Program-made: the position numbers and the translations under genes
In this document: in pieces, positions 4,292 through 57,232 of the stretch
How positions within the stretch are numbered: the stretch's first letter is position 1
Layout of the letters: each line of letters opens with the position of its first letter
Assembly: GCA_964642155.1 (NCBI GenBank)
Contig: CAZXNT010000004.1
Location: 2,040 to 66,039, forward strand
Direction: 5' to 3'
Length of the DNA: 64,000 nt
Origin: an uncultured Candidatus Saccharibacteria bacterium
GTDB taxonomy: Bacteria > Patescibacteriota > Minisyncoccia > UBA6257 > UBA9933
The notes under the pieces: generated by a model
The model's input: only the letters and a program-made list of their open reading frames with translations
Databases searched by the model: none
What the model was told of the DNA's origin: nothing

Positions 4292-4362
4292 AGCGGGGTA
4301 GAGGAACGGTACCTCGGGGGGCTCATAATCCCCAGGAGCGGGTTCAATTCCCGCCCCCGCAA
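4292..4362 (+). tRNA. tRNA-fMet (CAT), initiator-type
   Basis: Manual cloverleaf: A1xA72 mismatch, D-stem GAGG/CCTC, anticodon loop CTCATAA, G-C rich anticodon stem, T-loop TTCAATT, 3' CCCCGCAAC as in E. coli tRNA-fMet. Confidence 0.75.
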
Positions 4363-4378
4363 CATTTTTAAAATTTTC

Positions 4379-4450
4379 GTCGGCGTAGCTCAGTGGTAGA
4401 GCGAAGGACTCATAAACCTTAGGTCGCAGGTCCGATTCCTGCCGCCGACA
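4379..4450 (+). tRNA. tRNA-Met or tRNA-Ile2 (CAT anticodon, elongator type)
   Basis: Manual fold: acceptor GTCGGCG/CGCCGAC, D-arm GCTC..GAGC, anticodon loop CTCATAA, T-arm GCAGG-TCCGATT-CCTGC. Confidence 0.7.
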
Positions 4451-4459
4451 CTGAAATTA

Positions 4460-36683: not shown

Positions 36684-36839
36684 ATCCAATATAAAACCAC
36701 TCTTTAAAGATGGGTTTTGCGCCATTATTAAAATACATCCCAGTAAATTTTTCAATGAAAAATGATTGAAAAATTTACTGCTTTAGCGATAAATTCTTTT
36801 ATTAAAATTTAAGAAAAAAGAAAGACGCCGTACCCGAAG

Positions 36840-37130
36840 GTCGTGCGCCTGATGACTAGAGAGAAGAGAAAGAAACATGTTAGATTGGCTCGAAGACATA
36901 GGTCGGTGCTCGCTGACTGAAGCAACAGCCTCCAGTCATTGAGTCTTTGAAGAGCATACGCCACCTCTCTTTGCTCGGGTCGCTGTGTCGAATCAACGCG
37001 AACTCGGTTGTCTCTCCGGGATAGAGCTTGAGACTTTCGATCTCAATCTCCTGTGTAGGCTGATGCCCGCCAGTCCCGACGCGACAAACGATGGCTTCGT
37101 CGATCACTTCTCCATTTTCGAGGATTTTAA
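36840..37130. other. GC-anomalous (about 50% GC) about 290-bp segment with no convincing gene (foreign fragment or structured RNA)
   Basis: Sharp compositional shift versus about 33% GC flanks; only short overlapping ORFs (36880..37107 -, 36985..37368 +). Confidence 0.3.
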
Positions 37131-37133
37131 CTT

Positions 37134-37499
37134 TTATTCCTTTACCGAAACCATTATCACGGAAATAAGAGGTTTATCTAATTGCCACCAAACTACAATC
37201 GCAGATAAAGCGGCGATCAAAATAGCAGTGTCGCTTTTTGTTATATTTTTTGTTCCATACTTTAGTGAGAATAAAAAGACGGCAATAACAAAAAGTGTTC
37301 CAACTGTTAAATTAAGCGCACCCCAACCACCGCCACCATACCAAATCCCCAAAACCGCAGTTCCTTGAGTGATTGCCCATATTAGCCAAGTATAGGCGTG
37401 CGGTTTGGTTTTTAATAAAAAAGTATCTCTCAAATACGGAAAGAAGGCGGCAACTCCGATAATCGTGGCAATTATGGTAAGAATTATTTTTGTATCCAT
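37134..37499 (-). CDS. Hypothetical 4-TM membrane protein
   Basis: 121 aa, hydrophobic with GGGGWG motif. Confidence 0.35.
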   Translation of the reverse strand: MDTKIILTIIATIIGVAAFFPYLRDTFLLKTKPHAYTWLIWAITQGTAVLGIWYGGGGWGALNLTVGTLFVIAVFLFSLKYGTKNITKSDTAILIAALSAIVVWWQLDKPLISVIMVSVKE

Positions 37500-37501
37500 A
37501 A

Positions 37502-37822
37502 TTAATTTTCTATTGGATAAATATCAAAAGCAACTTCCTCGTATGGATGGATTGCTTTTACTTTTTCAATAACGTTTTTCAAAATTTCTCGTGGCACAAT
37601 TACTTCAATTCTTTCTTCTTCGACAGCTTCGTGTTTTCCGGATTCACCAATAGTGGGGTTTGTTTTTTCATTTCCACGAAAACGGCCAGTGCCGCGAGAA
37701 GAAAAAGAGCAAAAGTCATAGTTTCCAATTTTGCCAGCTCCGACTTCGCCAAGAGCTTGACGCACCGCGTCAGCGTGAAAAATCGGGACAAAGATAACAA
37801 TTTTTACATTTTTAGTTTCCAT
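37502..37822 (-). CDS. NIF3/YqfO C-terminal-like (CutA/PII-like fold) small protein
   Basis: 106 aa; GAGKIGNYDFCSFSSRGTGRFRG...AIHPYEEVAFDIYPI resembles the C-terminal domain of NIF3-family proteins. Confidence 0.4.
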   Translation of the reverse strand: METKNVKIVIFVPIFHADAVRQALGEVGAGKIGNYDFCSFSSRGTGRFRGNEKTNPTIGESGKHEAVEEERIEVIVPREILKNVIEKVKAIHPYEEVAFDIYPIEN

Positions 37823-38017
37823 ACTTATTTCAAAAACTTGTCCATTGAGATACCAGTTTTCTTTTCCAAGTCTTTTCCGGTGGCCTCTATTTCCTCGTCA
37901 TTCATTTTTCTTTCATTGATTCCATGTTCGTAAATAATTACTTCAATAGCTCATCAACCGAAACATCAAGCGCATTGGCGATTTTTTTCAAATCGTATTT
38001 AATATAACTTTTATTAT

Positions 38018-38280
38018 GTGCTGTAATTATACACTTTGCGCGAACCTTTTTCGAGCGGAAAGACCAATGACTTCGCACGCTCCGCGTGAGTGGTGGCTCT
38101 GACCAAAATCGTACGCGCGGAGCGCGTGGTGAAGCGAACTCTGCGCGCCTCGTCCGCTCCCTTCGGTCGCGGGAGCAAAAACCAAAAATTTTCCTTCCTT
38201 TCTTTTAGATTCTCGGCGGGGGGTGTGGGGGGAGCCGACAAAAAATGGAAAGGAAATTTTTGGTTTTGCTTCGCCACTAC
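38018..38280. repeat. IR1-L: left copy of an about 265-bp inverted repeat
   Basis: Near-identical reverse complement at 40616..40881; internal 22-bp hairpin flanking a G6-TGT-G6 run; ORFs 38014..38277(-) and 38090..38299(+) are artefacts of the repeat. Confidence 0.85.
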
Positions 38281-38566
38281 AGACTACGAAATGAACTAAT
38301 TCTATTTTATCACTTTAGGTGATACCTTGTCGCTCATTTCTCCGTCCTTGCGGCGAGACGAGGTGCCTCCTCTAGGTGTTTGGTGGATTTATCTGCTCTT
38401 GTAAAAGCGGAGGTCAGGCTTCCACAGAAGAGTTTTATCGCCGTTCTGTTGGTGTGTTGATGCCTGACCTCAATAGACTTTCTCCTTTTCATTATTAACG
38501 TAATCATTTGAAATATGACCCCCGTATGAGATGCTCCCCTCGCTCACCAAAATAAATAACGGCTTC

Positions 38567-40324
38567 CTATCGCTCGGGGGCATATTTTTTACATTTTTTA
38601 TATTCATTGTATTTATCATGAGCATCTGGTCTGCTACCATAGTCAATATTCCATTTTATCGATGGGTCAGATACAAAAGTAGCTGAATCAATTCCTTCAA
38701 TTATAAAAATTGCTGATTTTTGCCATTCATATTCTTTACCATAACAATATAGATGGTCCTTGTCAGCCGTATAAAGATCATTAATAACCCTGAATGTTTT
38801 CGGGTCAGCATCAATTTTCGTTAATGTACAACCTTCATAACAAAGAACGGCATATACACCGCGATTATCCTTAGCATATCTATCTGATAGTGCCTCAAAA
38901 TACCTTGTATCTGACCCACTAAGGGTGTCACCGAAACCACTGAAATACACTCTTCTATTATCTCTAGCAAAACTATCATTAATCACCGTGAAGGAATCGT
39001 GGTCAGCTCCGTCTAACATTTCCGCACGACTGCCGCTATATGGATCATAGTCAAAACGATAAATATTTTTTTCATCTTCAGCATAAATACTACCGAGTAT
39101 TTTGAACGTATTTCTTGTTGAAACACCCAAGGGGCAAAATCTTTCATCAGAAAGACTGCCATACTCAATACCATTTACTGAGTTTTTTATTGCCCAGTAT
39201 TCATTCAATTTAGTTACGCCGTCACTAGGGCGAGTAGGAACACAATCTCGGTTGAAGCTGGTGGTCGTAGCTAATTTAATACTCCTTATCACTTTATCAA
39301 GTTCATCTGCAAGTTTTCTCCCGTATTTCAAAGACATTGTTTCGAAACGAAATATAATAATTTTATCTTGTATCTTTACGTAGAATGAAAAAGTGCCGAA
39401 CATCTCGGATGGTTGATGGGTTAGCGTATAAGATAAACCACTATCAGTTCTTGATTCTTTACATTTTAGTTCAAAATAAAAATCAATAATCTGAACAGCA
39501 TTGTCACAATTCAAATCATCCGCTTTTATGTTTTTTATGCTTGAATCAAGATTGGAAAAGTGCTTCAAAAAGTCTGAGGAAGTGGAAGCTGAAAATATAT
39601 AAACTCTGCCTGCTCCACCAAATTCAGGCAGGTCTGAAGGTATAAGGTAGAGAATAGCTCCCGAATTCGAGGGTTCAAATTTATTTTCTCTTAATCCCCA
39701 ATCTGCCGGGTATACAAAAGAAAATCCTAATATTGTATTTTTATACAACTTGGGGGTGGCGTTTGCAGTCGCCACTGCTTGCGGTCCGTTCGATCTTGTT
39801 GGAGTTTGAAATCGCTCAACTTCGCCTTTCAGTTCGGCAATTTGTTTCGTCGCTTCCTCTTGGCCTTTCTTGCTTGCTTCAATTGCTTGCGTGATTGCCT
39901 CTTTTGCCTCATCGGGGACCTTAATTAAAATGGTGGCTAACACATCTTGATTTCTTGAGTTGTTGTCTGCAATCGAGTTGAGCAAAGTTTCCGCCTGTCC
40001 TTTGTCTTTAACTTCTTTTGATTTTTCTGTCGCTAACGCAATATTGCTTTCATAATTGGCGATAGCCGTTTTAACCCCGTCCGGATTCTTTTCTTCCGCA
40101 ATGGCTTCTATTTCAGCTAAACGCTCATCAGCATAACCTAACGCTTTCTTGGCTTTGCTTTCAGAATCAAAAGTGAAGAAAAGACCTATATTTTCAAAAG
40201 CGGTGTCAAAGAAATAGAAAAAACTTCCTGGCTTAACGCCCGCATTTGTAGCCGCGGACACTTGCACTGGTACAACAAAAGCAAGTGAGATAAGGAGTAC
40301 CGACAGTGTGGTTAGTTTTTTCAT
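38567..40324 (-). CDS. Secreted protein with N-terminal DUF5667-like helical domain and C-terminal DKNYY-type repeats
   Basis: 585 aa; signal peptide; KPGSFFYFFDTAFENI block; repeated YAKDNRGVY / YTADKDHLY / ARDNRRVYF motifs. Confidence 0.5.
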   Translation of the reverse strand: MKKLTTLSVLLISLAFVVPVQVSAATNAGVKPGSFFYFFDTAFENIGLFFTFDSESKAKKALGYADERLAEIEAIAEEKNPDGVKTAIANYESNIALATEKSKEVKDKGQAETLLNSIADNNSRNQDVLATILIKVPDEAKEAITQAIEASKKGQEEATKQIAELKGEVERFQTPTRSNGPQAVATANATPKLYKNTILGFSFVYPADWGLRENKFEPSNSGAILYLIPSDLPEFGGAGRVYIFSASTSSDFLKHFSNLDSSIKNIKADDLNCDNAVQIIDFYFELKCKESRTDSGLSYTLTHQPSEMFGTFSFYVKIQDKIIIFRFETMSLKYGRKLADELDKVIRSIKLATTTSFNRDCVPTRPSDGVTKLNEYWAIKNSVNGIEYGSLSDERFCPLGVSTRNTFKILGSIYAEDEKNIYRFDYDPYSGSRAEMLDGADHDSFTVINDSFARDNRRVYFSGFGDTLSGSDTRYFEALSDRYAKDNRGVYAVLCYEGCTLTKIDADPKTFRVINDLYTADKDHLYCYGKEYEWQKSAIFIIEGIDSATFVSDPSIKWNIDYGSRPDAHDKYNEYKKCKKYAPER

Positions 40325-40328
40325 ATCT

Positions 40329-40550
40329 CTATTTTATAAAATAGTTAATATCTTTACTGTACATTTTCGCAAAGGTCTGAAGTTCAACAACATCAACCCT
40401 CTGCTGTCCCGATTCTACATTAGAAATATGCGATTGCGGACGCTTCAATTTCTTTGCAACCTGAACCTGTGTCAATCCCGCCTCCTCCCGAGCTTTCCGT
40501 AATCGCTCGACAAAATAAGCATATTCCTTTGTTCTTATTGACCTAGTCAT
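40329..40550 (-). CDS. XRE-family helix-turn-helix transcriptional regulator
   Basis: 73 aa; LRKAREEAGLTQVQVAKKL...SHISNVESG HTH_XRE; 4 nt upstream of the 585-aa gene. Confidence 0.7.
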   Translation of the reverse strand: MTRSIRTKEYAYFVERLRKAREEAGLTQVQVAKKLKRPQSHISNVESGQQRVDVVELQTFAKMYSKDINYFIK

Positions 40551-40615
40551 ATATTACCATTGTCTATCTAAAGATTCAATATCCAAAGTTTAGATACTGT
40601 GGTAAACTGAATTTG

Positions 40616-40881
40616 GTAGCGGCGAAGCAAAACCAAAAATTTCCTTTCCATTTTTTGTCGGCTCCCCCCACACCCCCCGCCGAGAATCTAAAAGAAAGGA
40701 AGGAAAATTTTTGGTTTTTGCTCCCGCGACCGAAGGGAGCGGACGAGGCGCGCAGAGTTCGCTTCACCACGCGCTCCGCGCGTACGATTTTGGTCAGAGC
40801 CACCACTCACGCGGAGCGTGCGAAGTCATTGGTCTTTCCGCTCGAAAAAGGTTCGCGCAAAGTGTATAATTACAGCACCAT
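40616..40881. repeat. IR1-R: right (inverted) copy of the about 265-bp repeat
   Basis: Reverse complement of 38018..38280 with one indel at the outer end; ORFs 40576..40806(-) and 40613..40975(+) mirror the artefactual ORFs in IR1-L. Confidence 0.85.
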
Positions 40882-40972
40882 AAGTAACTTGTTCGGAAAT
40901 GACTGCTCCGCGCGGCGAGTACGCCGCGCTCCGCAGGGCAAAATCCGCTTTTGTTTTCGCCGTGAAATCCCA
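40875..40972. repeat. IR2-L: left copy of a 98-bp inverted repeat (overlaps the end of IR1-R by about 7 bp)
   Basis: gcaccataagtaacttgttcggaaatgactgctccgcgcggcgagtacgcc...gtgaaatccca; reverse complement at 42426..42523 with one mismatch. Confidence 0.85.
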
Positions 40973-40988
40973 TAATTCGCCCCAGCGT

Positions 40989-42662
40989 ATGGAAACAACT
41001 CAAACCAAAACTAAATGCGTTCTCTACGCTCGCAAGAGCACCGAGGAGGACGACAAGCAAGTGATGAGCATAGACGCTCAACTTTTTGAGCTGAAAGAAT
41101 ATGCTCGTAGAGAACGCATTGAAATCGTAAAAGTATTTACGGAAGCGAAAAGCGCAAAGAAGCCCGGGCGAGACCAATTCGCCAAAATGATTGCGTATAT
41201 TGAAAGTTCTAGTGAACCGCTTGGTATTTTGGCATGGCACCCAGACCGTCTCGCCCGTAATTCTGTTGATGGCGGAAAAATTATCTATCTCATAGACATC
41301 AACAGAATTGCTTCTTTGCGCTTTCCGCAGTTTTGGTTTGAGCCAACTCCGCAAGGGAAATTCATGTTGCAAGTGGCGTTCGGACAAAGCAAGTATTTCT
41401 CGGATAACTTAGTGGAAAATGTGAAGCGCGGTATCCGCCAAAAACTCCGCCGTGGCGAATGGCTGACGCTCGCTCCTTTGGGATATGTGAATAATTACAA
41501 AACGCGGAACATTGACCCTCACCCTACATATTCCAAAGTTATCAAGCGAGCGTTTGAGGAATACGCCACCGGAAAATATACCCTTGTCGGTTTAGCGGAG
41601 TTTTTGGCGGAGCATAGCATTGTCCAAAAGAAAGGAACGTCACTTGCCAAAGTTTCCGTCGTGAAAATGCTCACGAACAGGGCATATTTGGGATTTGTAA
41701 AATTTCATGGCGAATATCACGACGGAAACTTTGAGCCGATTCTTTCCCCGACACTGTTTGAAGCAGTGCAGAAGGTTTTGAAATCCAAGCAACGACCGCG
41801 CAAACAAAAGGAGAGGTATGATTTTCCATTTACGCAGTTTGCGCGGTGCGGCGAGTGCGGCAATATGATCACGGCGCAATATGCCACTAACCGCTTCGGC
41901 ACTCGCTATACTTACTATCGTTGCACCAAGAAAAGCGGAAAGTGTAGCCAGCCGTATATTGCCGCTGACGCGCTCGCCGCTCAAGCGCAAAGACTGCTTC
42001 AATCAGTGTCGCTCCCTCTCGAAGAAATTGCGATTATGGAAAAGCAGATAAACGTATGGAAAAACGAGTCAATTTCTTTGAGAGGAGAAGTTGCCCAAAA
42101 TCTGAAATCCAAGCTTTCCGAGGCGCAGGAGAAGCTAGACCGGCTTGTGTCGCTCTATCTCGACCAAGATATCGAGCGCGACCTGTATCTCACTCGCAAA
42201 GACGCTCTCCTGCGCCAAAAAGCGAAGTTGGAGGAAAGTTTGGGAGATTTTGGGCAACAAGGAAAGAATCGGCTCGAACCCTTGTGGAGTTTCGTTTTGT
42301 CCTTGAAAGAAGCGGAAAAAGTAGCGCAAACAAAAAATTACGCCGAATGGCGCAACTTTTTCCGTTCTCTCGGCTCTAACCCCGAAATCAAGGACAAAAC
42401 GCTTTCAATCAATTGGGGCGAACTCTGGGATTTCACGGCGAAAACAAAAGCGGATTTTGCCCTGCGGAGCGCGGCGCACTCGCCGCGCGGAGCAGTCATT
42501 TCCGAACAAGTTACTTATGGTGCCCGGGGTGGGATTCGAACCCACAAACCTTTTGGGTCAAGGATTTTAAGTCCTCTGCGTAAACCGTTCCGCCACCCGG
42601 GCATATTTAAATTTCGAGGCCTGAGGCGGAATCGAACCGCCGTTATACCCAGCACCTCTTGA
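40989..42662 (+). CDS. Large serine recombinase (resolvase/invertase catalytic domain + recombinase domain + zinc ribbon)
   Basis: Start METTQTKTKCVLYARKSTEEDD (catalytic Ser), LAWHPDRLARN, zinc ribbon CGECGN...YYRCTKKSGKC; about 47% GC; ORF has no stop before 42662 and reads through IR2-R and two tRNA genes, so the true C-terminus is uncertain. Confidence 0.8.
   Translation: METTQTKTKCVLYARKSTEEDDKQVMSIDAQLFELKEYARRERIEIVKVFTEAKSAKKPGRDQFAKMIAYIESSSEPLGILAWHPDRLARNSVDGGKIIYLIDINRIASLRFPQFWFEPTPQGKFMLQVAFGQSKYFSDNLVENVKRGIRQKLRRGEWLTLAPLGYVNNYKTRNIDPHPTYSKVIKRAFEEYATGKYTLVGLAEFLAEHSIVQKKGTSLAKVSVVKMLTNRAYLGFVKFHGEYHDGNFEPILSPTLFEAVQKVLKSKQRPRKQKERYDFPFTQFARCGECGNMITAQYATNRFGTRYTYYRCTKKSGKCSQPYIAADALAAQAQRLLQSVSLPLEEIAIMEKQINVWKNESISLRGEVAQNLKSKLSEAQEKLDRLVSLYLDQDIERDLYLTRKDALLRQKAKLEESLGDFGQQGKNRLEPLWSFVLSLKEAEKVAQTKNYAEWRNFFRSLGSNPEIKDKTLSINWGELWDFTAKTKADFALRSAAHSPRGAVISEQVTYGARGGIRTHKPFGSRILSPLRKPFRHPGIFKFRGLRRNRTAVIPSTS
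42426..42523. repeat. IR2-R: right copy of the 98-bp inverted repeat, ending exactly at the 3' end of tRNA-Leu(TAA)
   Basis: tgggatttcacggcg...aagttacttatggtgc; the terminal tggtgc is the reverse complement of the tRNA discriminator+CCA. Confidence 0.85.
42521..42602 (-). tRNA. tRNA-Leu (TAA)
   Basis: Manual fold on minus strand: acceptor GCCCGGG/CCCGGGC, anticodon loop CTTAAAA, long variable arm, T-arm GTGGG-TTCGAAT-CCCAC, encoded CCA. Confidence 0.8.
42603..42661 (-). other. Truncated tRNA-like fragment (acceptor + T-arm only) between tRNA-Cys and tRNA-Leu
   Basis: minus strand cgaggcc-tcaagaggtgctgggtataac-ggcgg-ttcgatt-ccgcc-tca-ggcctcg; lacks D and anticodon arms. Confidence 0.4.
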
Positions 42663-42733
42663 GGCCTCGGGGAGAATCGAACTCCCGTATAAGAGTTTTG
42701 CAGACTCTCGCCTTACCACTTGGCTACGAGGCC
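42662..42733 (-). tRNA. tRNA-Cys (GCA)
   Basis: Manual fold: acceptor GGCCTCG/CGAGGCC, 3-bp D-stem, anticodon stem AGAGT/ACTCT loop CTGCAAA, T-arm GGGAG-TTCGATT-CTCCC. Confidence 0.8.
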
Positions 42734-42970
42734 ATATTTTCTTTTTAGTAATTCTTTTTGTTGATGGTTTTTAAGAAATTTTTCATATTTCATAGCTTCA
42801 CTTCTTGAGTTGCGTTCATAATATTCAAGTAATTTCCATGGGCGATACGCTTTTGTTGATTTTACTTTTCCTTGATTATGTAAAATAATTCTTTTTTCAA
42901 GATTTGCCGTACTGCCAATATAGATATCATTATTTTTATCGCTTTTCAAGACATAAATATAGTAATTCAT
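42713..42970 (-). CDS. GIY-YIG nuclease-family protein (free-standing homing-endonuclease-like)
   Basis: Probable start MNYYIYVLKSDKNNDIYIGSTANLEKRIILHNQG (GIY-YIG core); stop codon lies inside the D-loop of tRNA-Cys; ORF-track start 43036 is likely an upstream over-extension. Confidence 0.65.
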   Translation of the reverse strand: MNYYIYVLKSDKNNDIYIGSTANLEKRIILHNQGKVKSTKAYRPWKLLEYYERNSRSEAMKYEKFLKNHQQKELLKRKYGLVAKW

Positions 42971-42974
42971 AAGA

Positions 42975-43043
42975 GTTTTGTCTGGCTTCGCCAGATCTCG
43001 CGTAGCGAGACAGACCCTCGCTTTACCACTTAGCAACCAGGCC
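42975..43043 (-). pseudogene. Divergent 5' half of a tRNA-Cys-like gene carrying a 30-nt twin-hairpin insertion in the anticodon loop; 3' half replaced by the GIY-YIG ORF
   Basis: minus strand ggcctggttgctaagtggtaaagcgagggtctg + tctcgctacgcgaga|tctggcgaagccaga + caaaactcttATG; acceptor 5' strand does not pair with the downstream tRNA-Cys 3' strand. Confidence 0.5.
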
Positions 43044-43087
43044 GTTGCTTAATCAATTTTAAGGTTTATAAAACTTAATTGTCAAAC

Positions 43088-44551
43088 TTACTGCCACATC
43101 AAGCGGTCGCCGGCAATAATAAAAATATCGGATTCAAATATAAGTCCGCATTCTTCATTAAGCAAAACTTCGTTGACTTCCTGTTTGTATTTTTTAAGGC
43201 TGGTTATTTTACCGAAGCCGATTTCATTATTTTCGCGCGTTATTTTCAGCTGATTGTTATTTTTAATTTTTCCCCCAATAACTTTCCCTCCAATTAATTG
43301 TTTTTTTCCTTTTTGGCTGAAAATTTTCAAAATTTCCAATTCTCCTTGAAGTGGGGGAGTTTCCAATAATTTTATTTCTTTTTGTATTATTTCAATTAAT
43401 TCGTAAATTATTTCCGAAGAAATTATTTTCACATTTTGCGCTTTTGCCAAATTTTCGGCGATTTTATTCGTTTTGACGCGAAAACCGGTAATAATGGCGT
43501 TGCTTGAGAACGCGCTTTTAATGTCGCCATCCGTTATCTCTCCAATGGATTCGTTTAAAACGTTAATTTTCACGTTTTCGCTTTTGAGCGTTTTGATTAT
43601 TTCGGACAAAGTTTCAAGCGAGCCGGAAACATCGGCTTTTAAAATTAAATTTAATTCCGGTAATCTATCCTTATTTGAAGCGATAAATTGGGTTGATGGT
43701 TTTTCTGATTCTGTTTGAATTTCCATCAAATCAATATTCCCACTGGTGAATTCTTCGCCTATTTGCGGCAATGTTTCAAATCCTAAAATTATTGCCGGTG
43801 AAGAAGGGGAGAGCGTGTCCGATTTTTCGCCTAAAAAATTTTCAAGATTTTTTATTTTTCCGCAAGCGCTGGCAGTGGCGATTCTGTCGTTGGTTTTCAA
43901 AATGCCGTTTTTAACGATGGCCGAGACGATTATTCCGCTTCGGCTGTCGGCTTTGGTCTCAATAATTATGCCGTTGGCGTTTTCATCGGGATTATAAGTT
44001 AAATTTTCCATTTCCGCGGCAAGTAAAATTAAATCAAGCAATTCATTGACGCCTTGGCCGGTCTTGGCTGAAATCGCTTGCCAGCTTATATTGCCGCCGT
44101 ATCCTTCAAGTAAAACTCCATTCGTCATTAAATCATTTTTTGTTTTTTCAATGTCGGCGTTCGGCTTGTCTATTTTATTGATGGCGACCACAAAAGGAGT
44201 TTTTGTTTCTTTAATAATTTCAATTGATTCTTTGGTTTGCGGTTTTACGCCGTCTTCGGCCGCTATCACTAAAATCGCTAGATCCGCCACTTTTGCTCCG
44301 CGGCCGCGCATTTTTGAAAACGCTTCGTGCCCCGGAGTATCTATAAAAGTGATTTTTTTGCCATTGTGTTCAATTTCATATGCGCCGATTGATTGAGTAA
44401 TGCCGCCGGCTTCTTTGGCAATAATGTTTGTTTTGCGTATAAAATCAAGCAAACTGGTTTTGCCGTGATCAACGTGCCCCATCACTACCACAATCGGCGG
44501 ACGAGAAAACGAATTTTCAATTATCTTTTTTTGGTTATTATTTTTTTCCAT
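43088..44551 (-). CDS. infB: Translation initiation factor IF-2 (short form)
   Basis: 487 aa; G-domain VVVMGHVDHGKTSLLD, DTPGHEAF, NKID; C-terminal beta-barrels. Confidence 0.85.
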   Translation of the reverse strand: MEKNNNQKKIIENSFSRPPIVVVMGHVDHGKTSLLDFIRKTNIIAKEAGGITQSIGAYEIEHNGKKITFIDTPGHEAFSKMRGRGAKVADLAILVIAAEDGVKPQTKESIEIIKETKTPFVVAINKIDKPNADIEKTKNDLMTNGVLLEGYGGNISWQAISAKTGQGVNELLDLILLAAEMENLTYNPDENANGIIIETKADSRSGIIVSAIVKNGILKTNDRIATASACGKIKNLENFLGEKSDTLSPSSPAIILGFETLPQIGEEFTSGNIDLMEIQTESEKPSTQFIASNKDRLPELNLILKADVSGSLETLSEIIKTLKSENVKINVLNESIGEITDGDIKSAFSSNAIITGFRVKTNKIAENLAKAQNVKIISSEIIYELIEIIQKEIKLLETPPLQGELEILKIFSQKGKKQLIGGKVIGGKIKNNNQLKITRENNEIGFGKITSLKKYKQEVNEVLLNEECGLIFESDIFIIAGDRLMWQ

Positions 44552-44736: not shown

Positions 44737-44763
44737 CCTTCGCCCGCCATAGCGGGCTTCGGC

Positions 44764-44827
44764 GGACACAGTCCGCCAGAGCTTTAGCGACGGCTGGACA
44801 CAGTCCGCAAGAAGTTTGCGACGGCGG
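44764..44827. repeat. Two tandem 32-bp GC-rich repeats each containing a ggac-aca-gtcc hairpin, preceded by a gcccgc-cata-gcgggc hairpin
   Basis: ggacacagtccgccagagctttagcgacggct / ggacacagtccgcaagaagtttgcgacggcgg; directly downstream of tRNA-Ser, upstream of a GIY-YIG gene. Confidence 0.55.
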
Positions 44828-44839
44828 GATGATTAAGTT

Positions 44840-45076
44840 ATGTATATAGTTTATATTTTAAAATGTATTGATGGAAAATCATATACTGGTTGTACAGAAA
44901 ATTTAGAAGAAAGATTAAAACGACATAATAATGGTTATGTTCCAGCAACTGAAAATCATCGCCCTGTTAAACTTATAACACACATTGTGTTTAGTGATAA
45001 ATATAAAGCGTTTGAATTTGAAAAATATTTAAAATCTGGTTCTGGACGAGCATTTTTAAATAAACATTTATATTAG
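44840..45076 (+). CDS. GIY-YIG nuclease family protein (YhbQ-like)
   Basis: 78 aa; MYIVYILKCIDGKSYTGCTENLEERLKRHNNG matches the GIY-YIG core. Confidence 0.7.
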   Translation: MYIVYILKCIDGKSYTGCTENLEERLKRHNNGYVPATENHRPVKLITHIVFSDKYKAFEFEKYLKSGSGRAFLNKHLY

Positions 45077-45102
45077 AAATAAATTTTTAAAATATTATCA
45101 CC

Positions 45103-56667: not shown

Positions 56668-56738
56668 TGCTCCCACAAGGAATCGAACCTTGATCAATTG
56701 CTTAAAAGGCAACTGCTTTACCACTAAGCTATGGGAGC
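56668..56738 (-). tRNA. tRNA-Lys (TTT)
   Basis: Manual fold: acceptor GCTCCCA/TGGGAGC, D-arm GCTT..AAGC, anticodon stem GTTGC/GCAAT loop CTTTTAA, T-arm CAAGG-TTCGATT-CCTTG. Confidence 0.8.
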
Positions 56739-56879
56739 GTATTTTATTAGTTCTTTAATATTATAACCTCCTTTTTCAATATTGGAAGTTGAGCCAATAT
56801 AATTTTTTTTATATCTATCACTTTTTATAATATAAGCATAATACTTCATAAGTCAATTAAATCCATGTAATTGACTTAA

Positions 56880-57060
56880 AAGTCCCGCAAAGCGGGGTTT
56901 ACCACTAAGCCCCGTTTCACGGGACCCCGTTTTGCGGGGCTATAGGAGCGTGTGCCCAGGGGGAGAGTCGAACTCCCATGCCTTGCGGCACGCGATTTTG
57001 CCTGCCCCGTACCGAGCTTTGCTCTGGCGCGGGGAGTCATGCGCGCCCCGCACTAAATTT
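56880..57060 (-). other. Composite of tRNA-derived fragments and GC hairpins; a complete tRNA could not be folded by eye
   Basis: minus strand: T-arm gggag-ttcgact-ctccc + cctgggca with GNRA-capped variable-arm-like stem, then gctcctatagc[hairpin insert]ttagtggtaaa-ccccgctttgcggga-ctttt (tRNA-Lys 5' half split by an insert). Confidence 0.35.
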
Positions 57061-57067
57061 TGTTTTG

Positions 57068-57151
57068 TGGCCAGGGAGGGATTTGAACCCTCACGCCCTT
57101 GCGAGCAATGGATTTTGAGTCCATATTGTCTGCCAATTCCAACACCTGGCC
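57068..57151 (-). tRNA. tRNA-Leu (CAA)
   Basis: Manual fold: acceptor GGCCAGG/CCTGGCC, anticodon stem ATGGA/TCCAT loop CTCAAAA, long variable arm, T-arm GAGGG-TTCAAAT-CCCTC. Confidence 0.8.
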
Positions 57152-57194
57152 ATTTATTTAATTATTAAGAAACAAAATTAGTGCGGGGTAAATC

Positions 57195-57232
57195 TGCCTC
57201 CGCCAGCTGGCGGACCGCCACCCGGGCATAAA
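57195..57232 (-). other. tRNA-Leu(TAA) 5'-end-like fragment fused to a ccgccagctggcgg palindromic hairpin
   Basis: minus strand atgcccgggtggcgg (identical to 5' end of tRNA-Leu at 42602) + tccgccagctggcgga hairpin. Confidence 0.4.

What the first reader, a model, noticed from the sequence alone, without database searches (positions are those of the whole stretch)
42521..43043. tRNA-Cys locus disrupted by a GIY-YIG endonuclease gene, with an upstream divergent 5' tRNA-Cys half carrying a 30-nt twin-hairpin insert
On the minus strand, a tRNA-Cys-like 5' half (acceptor, D-arm, anticodon stem) is interrupted after anticodon position 34 by two perfect 6-bp hairpins (tctcgc-tac-gcgaga and tctggc-gaa-gccaga). 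It then resumes with the ...caaaactctt anticodon-stem 3' strand, which runs directly into the ATG of a GIY-YIG ORF.

The ORF's stop codon lies inside the D-loop of the complete downstream tRNA-Cys(GCA). A second T-arm/acceptor-only tRNA fragment sits between tRNA-Cys and tRNA-Leu.

The divergent 5' half cannot pair with the downstream acceptor 3' strand. This looks like the footprint of homing-endonuclease invasion with co-conversion of donor flank, or a degenerate intron-like arrangement, not a simple intron.
Basis: partly seen in the sequence, partly recalled or inferred. Interest (0 to 1): 0.7.

Follow-up and report, generated by a model that had tools for sequence, protein, structure and literature searches.

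The report
Nuclease cassette replacing a tRNA-Cys gene
A small mobile DNA cassette, made of a 30-base double hairpin, a tiny GIY-YIG nuclease gene and its own tRNA-Cys gene, has split this bacterium's original tRNA-Cys gene in two; the same layout recurs in about 80 other Patescibacteria species and I found no published description of it.

Summary
On the minus strand lie a tRNA-Cys 5' part (43043-43011), two perfect abutting hairpins (43010-42981), an 85-aa GIY-YIG ORF (42970-42713) whose stop sits in the D-loop of an intact tRNA-Cys (42733-42661), and an orphan T-arm/acceptor piece (42647-42617).

They are the two halves of the resident tRNA-Cys.

Close relatives (IF-2 89-93% identical) carry that gene intact at the same site, with no ORF and no hairpins. 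Two others keep an ORF-less remnant. So a cassette (twin hairpin + ORF + its own tRNA-Cys) entered at anticodon-loop position 34/35.

The layout recurs in 78 of 80 Patescibacteria loci. Nuclease identity does not track host IF-2 identity.

The twin hairpin covaries strongly and is strand-symmetric. It also occurs in D- and T-loops of tRNA fragments, nested in itself, and in frame inside infB.

The nuclease is UPF0213/Slx1-like and has no DNA-binding domain. It is not an intron or a split tRNA.

Verdict: a mobile, homing-type cassette that brings a replacement tRNA. The hairpin's role is unresolved. No prior description was found.

The parts
43056..43085 (-). Sigma-70-like promoter TTGACA-18-TAAAAT of the resident tRNA-Cys gene. 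It now lies upstream of the whole cassette.
   Evidence: 11 of 12 matches. The same sequence is conserved in the empty-site alleles L082-L084.
43011..43043 (-). Resident (outer) tRNA-Cys, positions 1-34, ending at G34 of the GCA anticodon.
   Evidence: It is 33/33 identical to the intact tRNA-Cys of L083 and 32/33 to L082, against 28/33 for the inner tRNA. Its acceptor strand GGCCTGG pairs with 42624-42618.
42981..43010 (.). 30-nt twin hairpin (TCTCGC-TAC-GCGAGA / TCTGGC-GAA-GCCAGA) inserted exactly between tRNA positions 34 and 35. It is strand-symmetric.
   Evidence: (50.7 bits on the + strand, 50.5 on the -). Covariation across 79 loci. No sense-strand G-U bias.
42969..42980 (-). CAAAACTCTTAT, a tRNA position 35-46 remnant of the donor type. 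It is identical to the inner tRNA and differs by one base from the resident CAAAACCCTTAT. Its last two bases begin the ATG.
   Evidence: The twin-CAAAAC-(1-6 nt)-ATG spacing is conserved across loci.
42713..42970 (-). 85-aa mini GIY-YIG nuclease ORF. Its last 6 codons and its stop are encoded by the 5' end of the inner tRNA-Cys.
   Evidence: PF01541, 1.6e-16; Y6, Y17, G19, R27, E63 invariant, H31 in at least 90% of sequences; C-terminal G-L-V-A-K-W in many homologues; UPF0213/SLX1; junction fixed in 39/72 loci.
42661..42733 (-). Complete incoming (inner) tRNA-Cys(GCA). It is presumably the working gene and is the only intact tRNA-Cys in the window.
   Evidence: ARAGORN; Rfam 68.2 bits. Nearly the same tRNA is retained in the ORF-less relatives L081/L085.
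42648..42660 (-). AAGAGGTGCTGGG, a D-loop-like start of a partial tRNA copy that came with the cassette. The same junction is present in L081/L085.
42617..42647 (-). Resident (outer) tRNA-Cys 3' part: variable-loop remnant TATAAC, T-arm GGCGG-TTCGATT-CCGCC, acceptor strand TCAGGCC and discriminator T.
   Evidence: D3. The T-arm to discriminator stretch (42641-42617) is 24/25 identical to the empty-site tRNA-Cys; the inner tRNA matches at about 20/25 by hand alignment (the value of 11/25 came from a misregistered slice). Blastn aligns L082 3343-3466 with window 42643-42520 at 98.4%. The rebuilt outer tRNA folds as tRNA-Cys.
42518..42602 (-). tRNA-Leu(TAA), the conserved downstream neighbour. 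It is not part of the insertion.
   Evidence: tRNA-Leu(TAA) follows tRNA-Cys in most loci.

Best explanation
This is a mobile, homing-type cassette that invaded the resident tRNA-Cys gene at anticodon-loop position 34/35 and brought its own replacement tRNA-Cys.

**What is shown.**
- The ancestral locus was infB, then promoter, then one tRNA-Cys, then tRNA-Leu. That state survives in close relatives.
- In this genome about 367 nt lie between G34 and the variable loop of that gene: twin hairpin, CAAAAC leader, 85-aa GIY-YIG ORF, a foreign complete tRNA-Cys and a short partial tRNA copy.
- The resident halves remain as flanking relics that still complement each other.
- Two other relatives carry the decayed state: ORF deleted, foreign tRNA kept.
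- The same modular layout is found in dozens of Patescibacteria species.
- Nuclease identity does not follow host identity.

**What is inferred.**
- The nuclease, alone or with a partner, breaks intact tRNA-Cys genes at or near TG^CA in the anticodon loop.
- The break is repaired from an occupied allele, which copies everything between the two homologous tRNA segments.
- Because the cassette carries a tRNA-Cys, or at least its first 34 nt fused to the ORF end, the essential gene is restored and the invasion is tolerated.
- The ORF has no promoter of its own and is read from the resident tRNA promoter.
- RNase P cutting at the inner tRNA would remove the ORF's stop codon. Only unprocessed precursor could then give full-length nuclease.

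**Least certain.** The twin hairpin sits exactly at the break point and immediately before the ORF. It may plug the cut site in the relic halves, and it may be the DNA structure the Slx1-like nuclease recognises. It behaves as a mobile palindrome in its own right.
For: **The site is empty in close relatives.**
- L082, L083 and L084 (IF-2 C-terminus 89-93% identical; 86-96% nucleotide identity) have the same upstream flank.
- They then carry one intact tRNA-Cys that equals the window's outer 5' half (33/33) plus the orphan 3' piece (24/25), followed by the same spacer and, in L082, the same tRNA-Leu.
- They have no ORF and no twin hairpin.

**A decayed state also exists.**
- L081 and L085 keep the inner-type tRNA-Cys and the GGTGCTGGG junction.
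- They have lost the ORF and all but a short remnant of the hairpin pair.

**The outer halves belong together.**
- Removing the two insertions in silico rebuilds a valid tRNA-Cys.
- An upstream 5' acceptor strand pairs with a downstream orphan T-arm/acceptor in 14 loci.

**The layout recurs.**
- 78/80 genome loci have the ORF abutting or overlapping tRNA-Cys.
- The tRNA starts right after the Tyr79 codon in 39/72 loci and within 7 nt in 58/72.
- The twin lies 7-12 nt before the ATG in most loci.

**The nuclease does not track the host.**
- Pairwise IF-2 and GIY-YIG identities correlate at Spearman 0.11.
- Mean GIY-YIG identity is 61% against 45% for IF-2. One pair has IF-2 at 86% but GIY-YIG at 64%.

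**The twin travels with the ORF.**
- The two hairpins of a twin always share a class (37 C/C, 33 G/G, no G/C mixtures).
- GIY-YIG identity is higher within a class (permutation p<0.0005). IF-2 identity is not (p=0.21).

**The nuclease looks active.** The catalytic residues are conserved.

**Other supporting points.**
- The promoter lies upstream of the outer half.
- HNH ORFs sit before tRNA-Leu in six loci in a parallel layout, and a new-type tRNA-Leu follows the ORF in L084.
Against: - No cleavage activity or specificity is known for this protein. It is only a catalytic domain (85 aa) of the UPF0213/Slx1 branch. It scores below the cut-off of the intron-endonuclease family.
- The inner tRNA-Cys keeps an intact CTGCAAAAC loop and so should remain a target. 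Immunity is unexplained.
- Identity of the inner tRNA does not correlate with ORF identity (rho -0.07). The tRNA next to the ORF is therefore often homogenised or exchanged.
- The 80 loci were chosen by similarity to the query, which narrows the identity range used in the correlation.
- A plug would not need a conserved palindrome. Twins also occur away from any ORF, in downstream tRNA fragments and inside infB.
Confidence: 0.7

Rival explanations
1. Hairpin-transposon reading. The 30-nt twin hairpin is the primary mobile element: a miniature palindrome that inserts without target duplication at G^CAA. The mini GIY-YIG is its structure-specific mobilising nuclease, comparable to REP/RAYT or to IS200/IS605 with its hairpin-only derivatives. 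The nests of tRNA-Cys fragments and the duplicated tRNA would then be by-products of repeated breakage and repair at tRNA loops.
For: - 136 twin sites were found. 108 have CAA on the right and 94 have TG on the left.
- They sit in anticodon, D and T loops, nested inside other twins, and in frame in infB at three different positions.
- The 34/35 insertion is a clean 30-nt gain with no duplication.
- The element is strand-symmetric. The loops are TNC and GNA, both strands score equally, and G-T versus A-C mismatches are 26 versus 19.
- The GNA loop closed by C-G matches the very stable d(GCGAAGC) mini-hairpin (my own knowledge, not tested here).
- The nuclease belongs to the structure-specific Slx1/UPF0213 branch.
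- A second GIY-YIG subfamily has its own covarying hairpin pair just upstream of its ORF.
- No twin occurs in the ORF-less relatives.
Against: - GIY-YIG enzymes hydrolyse DNA and form no covalent intermediate, so a transposition chemistry is not obvious.
- The window has only one twin in 64 kb.
- About 90% of twins lie within the tRNA-Cys array itself.
- The dependence of solo twins on the nuclease was not tested genome-wide.
Confidence: 0.2
2. Campbell-type integration. A small circular element carrying a twin-bearing tRNA-Cys segment, the ORF and a tRNA-Cys recombined with the chromosomal tRNA-Cys through a recombinase or homologous recombination. The GIY-YIG nuclease would not be the driver.
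For: - Direct repeats of GGTCTG-twin-CAAAAC flank the ORF plus inner tRNA in several loci, sometimes with identical twins (L013, L052, L059).
- The outer 5' half pairs with the last 3' fragment. That is the topology such an integration predicts.
- A large serine recombinase lies next to tRNA-Leu in this window.
Against: - It requires a chromosomal tRNA-Cys that already carries a twin and is therefore broken. None was seen: no complete tRNA reappears when twins are deleted.
- The empty alleles have no twin.
- The cassette encodes no recombinase.
- The serine recombinase belongs to a separate 5.8-kb island that is absent from L082, and most loci have none.
Confidence: 0.06
3. Functional RNA arrangement. 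The outer halves, with or without the twin, would be processed into a second tRNA-Cys as an intron, a split tRNA or a twintron. Alternatively the pseudo-half plus hairpins would be a domesticated regulatory leader of a host gene inherited vertically.
For: - The layout is conserved in many species.
- The upstream half is identical to the inner 5' half in about 26 loci.
- The hairpins lie at a fixed distance from the ATG.
- Group I introns at 35/36 are known in Patescibacteria tRNA genes (bioRxiv 10.1101/2025.07.03.662931).
Against: - No group I match appears at E up to 10.
- ARAGORN in intron mode finds nothing.
- Deleting twins never restores a complete tRNA in 81 loci.
- The window's outer 3' part lacks positions 35-43.
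- Presence, absence and decay all occur among close relatives.
- The stems show no sense-strand bias.
- The ORF does not track the host.
Confidence: 0.04

Closest known systems
Free-standing GIY-YIG homing endonucleases of phage T4, especially SegB in the T4 tRNA gene cluster (PMC2330249)
   Same: - A GIY-YIG nuclease gene sits outside any intron, among tRNA genes.
- It spreads with its flanking tRNA sequence by break repair.
- It shows presence/absence between relatives.
   Different: - Seg proteins are over 200 aa and have DNA-binding domains. This protein is 85 aa, catalytic domain only, of the UPF0213/Slx1 branch.
- Here the target tRNA gene is itself split, and a replacement copy is fused to the ORF end.
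- The setting is chromosomal in Patescibacteria, not phage. A scan of the viral contig collection found no match.
- A conserved twin hairpin accompanies it.
Mobile endonuclease ORFs that create hybrid or duplicated genes in fungal mitochondria, together with the double-hairpin elements of Allomyces mtDNA (cited in PMC3787672: Paquin et al. 2000; Beaudet et al. 2013)
   Same: - An endonuclease ORF arrives together with a piece of the target gene, which replaces the resident part. The displaced resident part stays as a pseudogene.
- Short mobile elements that fold into two hairpins occur in the same genomes.
   Different: - Those are organelle protein genes, not a bacterial tRNA gene.
- Sequence relatedness of the hairpins was not tested here.
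- Here the hairpin pair sits exactly at the junction and directly before the ORF in nearly every copy.
Integrative elements that target tRNA genes and carry a tRNA segment that restores the gene (established knowledge of phage and ICE att sites)
   Same: - The tRNA gene is the target.
- The element supplies sequence that regenerates a working tRNA.
- A displaced tRNA fragment marks the far end.
   Different: - Those elements use tyrosine or serine integrases, usually act at the 3' end, and are kilobases long.
- This cassette is about 370 nt and has no recombinase.
- It splits the gene in the anticodon loop and duplicates the 5' part or the whole gene.
Group I introns in Patescibacteria tRNA genes at position 35/36 (bioRxiv 10.1101/2025.07.03.662931) and insertion sequences in CPR rRNA genes (PMC11270868)
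   Same: - Same phylum.
- The anticodon loop is the insertion point.
- Nuclease genes (HNH, LAGLIDADG, a few GIY-YIG) are associated with insertions in stable-RNA genes.
   Different: - There is no ribozyme core here and nothing to splice, because a complete tRNA lies inside the insertion.
- Neither paper mentions tRNA-Cys, mini GIY-YIG genes next to tRNAs, or the twin hairpin.
Palindromic mobile repeats: REP/RAYT, hairpin-only derivatives of IS200/IS605, and Rickettsia palindromic elements inserted in frame in genes (established knowledge)
   Same: - These are short palindromes with conserved structure.
- A nuclease gene is flanked by its cognate hairpins.
- Insertion leaves no target duplication (IS200/IS605).
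- In-frame insertions are tolerated in essential protein genes (the Rickettsia elements).
   Different: - The associated enzyme here is GIY-YIG, not a HUH/Y1 transposase.
- The unit is two abutting 15-nt hairpins.
- There are very few copies per genome, concentrated at one tRNA locus.
UPF0213 (YhbQ/YazA) and Slx1 structure-specific endonucleases (PMC7017083; PDB 1zg2, 1ywl, 7cq2)
   Same: - Closest sequence relatives with solved structures.
- Same small URI/GIY-YIG catalytic core.
   Different: - Slx1 has a zinc-finger domain and needs Slx4.
- Bacterial UPF0213 proteins have no assigned mobile-element role that I know of, and no known link to tRNA genes (my own knowledge).

Membership tests
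GIY-YIG nuclease superfamily | Pfam PF01541 match above the gathering score, with the conserved Tyr, Tyr-x-Gly, Arg, His and Glu residues. | tested here: met
   60.8 bits against a cut-off of 22.6. Y6, Y17, G19, R27 and E63 are invariant, and H31 is present in at least 90% of 34 sequences.
UPF0213 / Slx1 branch of GIY-YIG | Closest relatives are the roughly 100-aa stand-alone URI domains and the Slx1 catalytic domain. | tested here: met
   Profile against PDB: 1zg2 at 3e-11, 1ywl at 1e-8, SLX1 at 2e-6. The I-TevI catalytic domain scores only 5e-3.
Classical GIY-YIG homing endonucleases (I-TevI, Seg) | An N-terminal catalytic domain joined to a C-terminal DNA-binding domain. | tested here: not met
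   The protein is 85 aa and the catalytic domain fills it. TIGR01453 scores 24 bits against a cut-off of 56.
Classical GIY-YIG homing endonucleases (I-TevI, Seg) | The gene is present or absent at one fixed site among close relatives, with an intact target in the empty allele. | tested here: met
   L082-L084 are empty, the window is occupied, and L081/L085 are decayed.
Classical GIY-YIG homing endonucleases (I-TevI, Seg) | The protein cleaves the empty allele site-specifically. | not testable with these tools
   This needs biochemistry. The break point 34/35 is inferred from junctions only.
Group I intron in a tRNA gene | A conserved ribozyme core (Rfam RF00028) lies between two tRNA exons that join into one tRNA. 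| tested here: not met
   No group I intron match was found in 42300-43300 at E up to 10. A complete tRNA lies inside the insertion.
Protein-spliced tRNA intron or split tRNA (archaeal type) | Removing the insert gives a complete tRNA, and a bulge-helix-bulge motif lies at the boundaries. | tested here: not met
   ARAGORN in intron mode finds none. Deleting twins restores no tRNA in any of 81 loci. The twin forms two closed hairpins; a bulge-helix-bulge motif was not looked for.
tRNA-targeting integrative element | Encodes a tyrosine or serine recombinase, with att repeats at both ends. | tested here: not met
   The roughly 370-nt cassette holds only the GIY-YIG ORF and a tRNA. The nearby serine recombinase belongs to a separate 5.8-kb island.
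IS200/IS605 or REP/RAYT hairpin elements | A HUH/Y1 transposase is associated with the hairpins. | tested here: not met
   No such ORF occurs in or next to the cassette. The resemblance is functional only.

The most novel reading that the evidence does not exclude
The twin hairpin and the mini GIY-YIG gene would form a new kind of bacterial mobile system. In it, an Slx1-like structure-specific nuclease acts with its cognate 30-nt palindrome, which inserts without target duplication at G^CAA in exposed loops of tRNA genes and in frame in protein genes. The system would survive in essential tRNA genes by carrying a spare tRNA. Different nuclease subfamilies would each have their own hairpin pair and their own tRNA target (Cys, Ser, Lys).
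Probability: 0.3. Interest if true: 0.85.

Novelty: new variant of a known kind. Interest (0 to 1): 0.74.

Why it matters
- It shows how a selfish nuclease gene can colonise an essential, single-copy tRNA gene in a minimal genome: it brings a replacement copy with it.
- All three stages of the invasion cycle (empty, occupied, decayed) are visible among close relatives.
- It explains many stray tRNA halves and over-long 'GIY-YIG' ORF calls in Patescibacteria assemblies.
- It points to a role for the large, uncharacterised UPF0213-type mini-nuclease family (5,771 cluster representatives).
- It uncovers a conserved 30-nt DNA palindrome that can sit inside IF-2 and in tRNA loops.
- If the nuclease-hairpin link holds, this would be a compact, structure-guided insertion system of a chemistry not yet described for bacterial mobile DNA.

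Tried and rejected
- **Group I intron:** an Rfam scan of 42300-43300 at E up to 10 gave only the two tRNAs and chance hits.
- **Intron-containing or split tRNA:** ARAGORN with introns up to 500 nt finds nothing new. Deleting all twins in 81 loci restores no tRNA.
- **Genome-wide repeat:** the window holds only one twin.
- **Phage origin:** the twin-in-anticodon-loop pattern has no match in the viral contig collection.
- **RNA-only structure:** there is no excess of G-U over A-C mismatches, and both strands score equally.
- **Vertical inheritance:** the IF-2 versus GIY-YIG identity correlation is only 0.11.
- **N-terminal extension:** the 107-aa ORF call (P0002) reads through the twin. The twin-to-ATG distance varies by 7-12 nt and not in multiples of three, and homologues start at the MNYY methionine.
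- **Serine recombinase as driver:** it lies in a separate island that is absent from L082.
- **Prior description:** seven full-text literature searches were run, and none turned up a description of this arrangement.
- **Alignment caveat:** MAFFT placed the empty-allele tRNA against the inner tRNA. Direct identity counts show it belongs with the outer pieces. One slice in that script was misregistered; the correct inner T-arm identity is about 20/25 by hand.


Full report
**1. What is in the sequence**

All features lie on the minus strand.
- A strong promoter-like site, TTGACA-18-TAAAAT, lies at 43085-43056.
- It is followed by GGCCTGGTTGCTAAGTGGTAAAGCGAGGGTCTG (43043-43011). This is a tRNA-Cys from position 1 to G34 of the GCA anticodon.
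- Next come two abutting perfect hairpins, TCTCGC-TAC-GCGAGA and TCTGGC-GAA-GCCAGA (43010-42981).
- Then comes CAAAACTCTTAT, whose last bases start the ATG of an 85-aa ORF (42970-42713).
- The ORF matches the Pfam GIY-YIG domain at E=1.6e-16.
- The last six codons of the ORF and its TAA stop are encoded by the 5' end and D-loop of a complete tRNA-Cys(GCA), 42733-42661 (ARAGORN; Rfam 68 bits).
- After 13 nt (AAGAGGTGCTGGG) comes TATAAC-GGCGG-TTCGATT-CCGCC-TCAGGCC-T (42647-42617). This is a variable-loop remnant, T-arm, acceptor 3' strand and discriminator U.
- tRNA-Leu(TAA) follows at 42602-42518.
- The twin hairpin occurs once in 64 kb and in none of 20 shuffles. As DNA it folds with z=-4.1.

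**2.

- The upstream acceptor strand GGCCTGG mismatches the complete tRNA's CGAGGCC (G.G at 6:67). It pairs over all seven positions with the orphan TCAGGCC.
- Its D-stem carries a compensatory T12-A23 in place of C12-G23.
- Joining the outer pieces in silico, without the twin and without the 325-nt block, gives a cloverleaf that ARAGORN calls tRNA-Cys(GCA).
- The two 'fragments' are the halves of one gene.

**3. Related genomes: the layout recurs**

- The 85-aa protein has more than 200 close homologues named as Patescibacteria GIY-YIG proteins. Many are exactly 84-85 aa and end in G-x-V-A-K-W/R, which is the translation of a tRNA-Cys 5' end.
- I fetched 80 loci from species-representative genomes. 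In 78 the ORF abuts or overlaps tRNA-Cys(GCA), usually followed by tRNA-Leu(TAA).
- The tRNA begins directly after the conserved Tyr79 codon in 39 of 72 ungapped cases and within 7 nt in 58.
- infB lies directly upstream in 56 of the 80 loci.
- Nearly every locus has, just before the ATG, a tRNA-like 5' part ending in GGTCTG, then a twin hairpin, then CAAAAC and a few bases.

**4. The twin hairpin is a conserved module**

*Covariation.*
- I aligned 79 upstream regions chosen only by position relative to the ATG.
- The 12 stem pairs are 94% paired, against 75% in shuffles and 34-50% when the partners are slid.
- There are 162 double-sided changes against 59 expected, and 0 of 500 shuffles reach the observed score.
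- Changes are mostly C-G to G-C swaps. G-T mismatches (26) do not outnumber A-C mismatches (19; p=0.37).

*Strand symmetry.*
- A covariance model scores both strands equally, at 50.7 and 50.5 bits for the window copy.
- The loops are TNC in the first hairpin and GNA in the second, which are complementary.
- The element therefore reads the same on both strands. This points to a DNA-level palindrome, not an RNA structure.

*Insertion sites.*
- 136 twins were found in the 81 loci. 79 are in anticodon loops (CTG^CAAA), 11 in D-loops (AGC^CAAG) and 8 in T-loops.
- Several are nested inside another twin.
- 108 of 136 have CAA on the right and 94 have TG on the left.
- A few lie in frame, as 10 extra codons, inside infB at three different positions (L021, L042, L017).

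*What deletion does.*
- Deleting twins never restores a complete tRNA. They occur only in already broken tRNA pieces or in protein genes.

**5. Nested architecture**

- Downstream of the complete tRNA-Cys, many loci carry one to three partial tRNA-Cys 3' copies. These start in the D-loop, and each has a twin at 34/35.
- In 14 loci, the window included, an upstream 5' acceptor strand pairs with a downstream T-arm/acceptor fragment. In about ten of them, the window included, that strand differs from the inner tRNA's.
- In about 26 loci the upstream half has the same acceptor strand as the inner tRNA. Several of these have no downstream copy.

**6. The decisive result: empty and decayed alleles**

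I anchored a metagenome scan on the IF-2 C-terminus. It returned five close relatives, 89-94% identical in protein.

- **Empty.**
  - L082, L083 and L084 have the same upstream flank and promoter.
  - They then carry one intact tRNA-Cys: GGCCTGGTTGCTAAGTGGTAAAGC(G/A)AGGGTCTGCAAAACCCTTATACGGCGGTTCGATTCCGCCCCAGGCCT.
  - L082 continues with the same spacer and the same tRNA-Leu.
  - Positions 1-33 of this tRNA are 33/33 identical to the window's outer half, against 28/33 for the inner tRNA.
  - Its 3' end is 24/25 identical to the orphan piece.
  - Blastn breaks the L082-window alignment exactly at 43011 and resumes at 42643.
- **Occupied.**
  - The window's resident gene was split at 34/35 by about 367 nt.
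  - The 12 nt after the twin (CAAAACTCTTAT) are of the inner-tRNA type, not the resident type.
- **Decayed.**
  - L081 and L085 keep the inner-type tRNA-Cys and the same GGTGCTGGG junction with a shortened resident 3' remnant.
  - They have no ORF and only a short remnant of the hairpin pair.
- None of these five relatives has a twin.

**7. Does the ORF follow its hosts?**

- Across 50 loci that have both genes, pairwise IF-2 and GIY-YIG identities correlate at Spearman 0.11.
- Mean GIY-YIG identity (61%) exceeds mean IF-2 identity (45%).
- One pair has IF-2 at 86% and GIY-YIG at 64%. The window and L003 have IF-2 at 47% and GIY-YIG at 77%.
- The two hairpins of a twin always share a class (37 C/C, 33 G/G, no G/C mixtures).
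- GIY-YIG identity is higher within a class (p<0.0005), while IF-2 identity is not (p=0.21). The twin therefore travels with the ORF.
- Caveat: the loci were selected by similarity to the query.

**8. The protein**

- The catalytic residues are conserved.
- The closest solved structures are the roughly 100-aa UPF0213 proteins (1zg2 at 3e-11, 1ywl) and the SLX1 catalytic domain. I-TevI is marginal at 5e-3.
- The intron-endonuclease family TIGR01453 scores below its cut-off.
- There is no room for a DNA-binding domain.
- The wider family has 5,771 cluster representatives at E up to 1e-3.

**9. Mechanism**

*Shown.*
- A cassette was inserted into an intact resident gene.
- It arrived with a foreign tRNA-Cys.
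- Decay and loss follow.
- The layout recurs widely, with little tracking of the host.

*Inferred.*
- The nuclease breaks intact tRNA-Cys genes at or near TG^CA.
- Repair from an occupied allele copies everything between the homologous tRNA segments.
- Both junctions fall at the twin, because homology begins there.
- The carried tRNA keeps the cell viable.
- Expression comes from the resident promoter.
- RNase P processing of the inner tRNA would remove the ORF's stop codon.

*Unresolved.*
- What the twin does.
- How the inner tRNA escapes cutting.

The main rival reverses cause and effect. In that reading the twin is the mobile element and the nuclease is its structure-specific partner.

**10. 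Comparison with what is known**

The nearest parallels are:
- T4 SegB, a free-standing GIY-YIG homing endonuclease among tRNA genes (PMC2330249);
- mitochondrial endonuclease ORFs that bring a gene piece and leave hybrids, together with the Allomyces double-hairpin elements (as cited in PMC3787672);
- integrative elements that restore their tRNA target.

Patescibacteria tRNA group I introns (bioRxiv 10.1101/2025.07.03.662931) and insertions in CPR rRNA genes (PMC11270868) are known. Neither paper mentions this arrangement, and none of the searches run turned up a description of it.

I rate it a new variant of a known kind, with a real chance that the hairpin-nuclease pair is something new.

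Noticed in passing
window 44739-45102 (+): A second mini GIY-YIG ORF (44840-45076, 78 aa) lies directly after tRNA-Ser(GCT). It is preceded by its own GC-rich hairpin pair (44742-44830). The whole 365-nt block is absent from L083/L084, truncated in L082 and present in L081. Its subfamily has 1,678 close homologues. In other genomes it again sits just after tRNA-Ser genes, with the same covarying hairpins.
   Followed up: partly
window 56724-56960 (-): A degenerate 41-aa GIY-YIG ORF ends inside tRNA-Lys(TTT) (56738-56667). Upstream is a pseudo tRNA-Lys 5' part interrupted by GC hairpins (DNA fold z=-5.1). This is the same layout as at tRNA-Cys, in a decayed state.
   Followed up: partly
window 56953-57231 (-): A tRNA-Leu 5' fragment (GCCCGGGTGGCGG) with a hairpin (TCCGCC-AGCT-GGCGGA) precedes the complete tRNA-Leu(CAA) at 57151-57067. 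An orphan T-arm/acceptor (about 56985-56953) follows and pairs with that fragment. This is a nested tRNA-Leu with no ORF left.
   Followed up: no
window 36685-42519: About 5.8 kb here is absent from the close relative L082. The island abuts the 3' end of tRNA-Leu(TAA). It holds a large serine recombinase (ORF 40899-42662, which reads on through antisense tRNA-Leu), an HTH protein and a 585-aa protein. The recombinase gene is flanked by 121-nt inverted repeats (40875-40995 and 42403-42523, 93% complementary), and each repeat starts with the tRNA-Leu 3' end GCACCA.
   Followed up: partly
L084 3383-4019; also L085, L017, L007, L053, L073: An HNH endonuclease ORF of about 155 aa sits between tRNA-Cys and tRNA-Leu(TAA). 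In L084 and L017 it is preceded by a pseudo tRNA-Leu 5' half that breaks off in the anticodon-stem/loop region. In L084 it is followed by a complete tRNA-Leu of a different sequence type. A nuclease cassette again brings its own tRNA, this time without a twin hairpin.
   Followed up: partly
L021:1044-1073, L042:1133-1162, L017:1356-1385: 30-nt twin hairpins are inserted in frame, as 10 extra codons, at three different places in the essential infB gene. A second hairpin type (TCCGCC-AAA-GGCGGA / TCCGCC-TCG-GGCGGA) recurs in and near infB in L020, L042 and L053.
   Followed up: partly
L027:2072-2240: A second, more distant GIY-YIG ORF lies in tandem upstream of the main one. It has its own tRNA-Cys 5' fragment and a twin of another stem type (TCAGGC/TCACGC).
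   Followed up: no
window 4292-4451 (+): Two tRNA-Met(CAT) genes lie 15 nt apart in tandem. I did not examine them for fragments or insertions.
   Followed up: no
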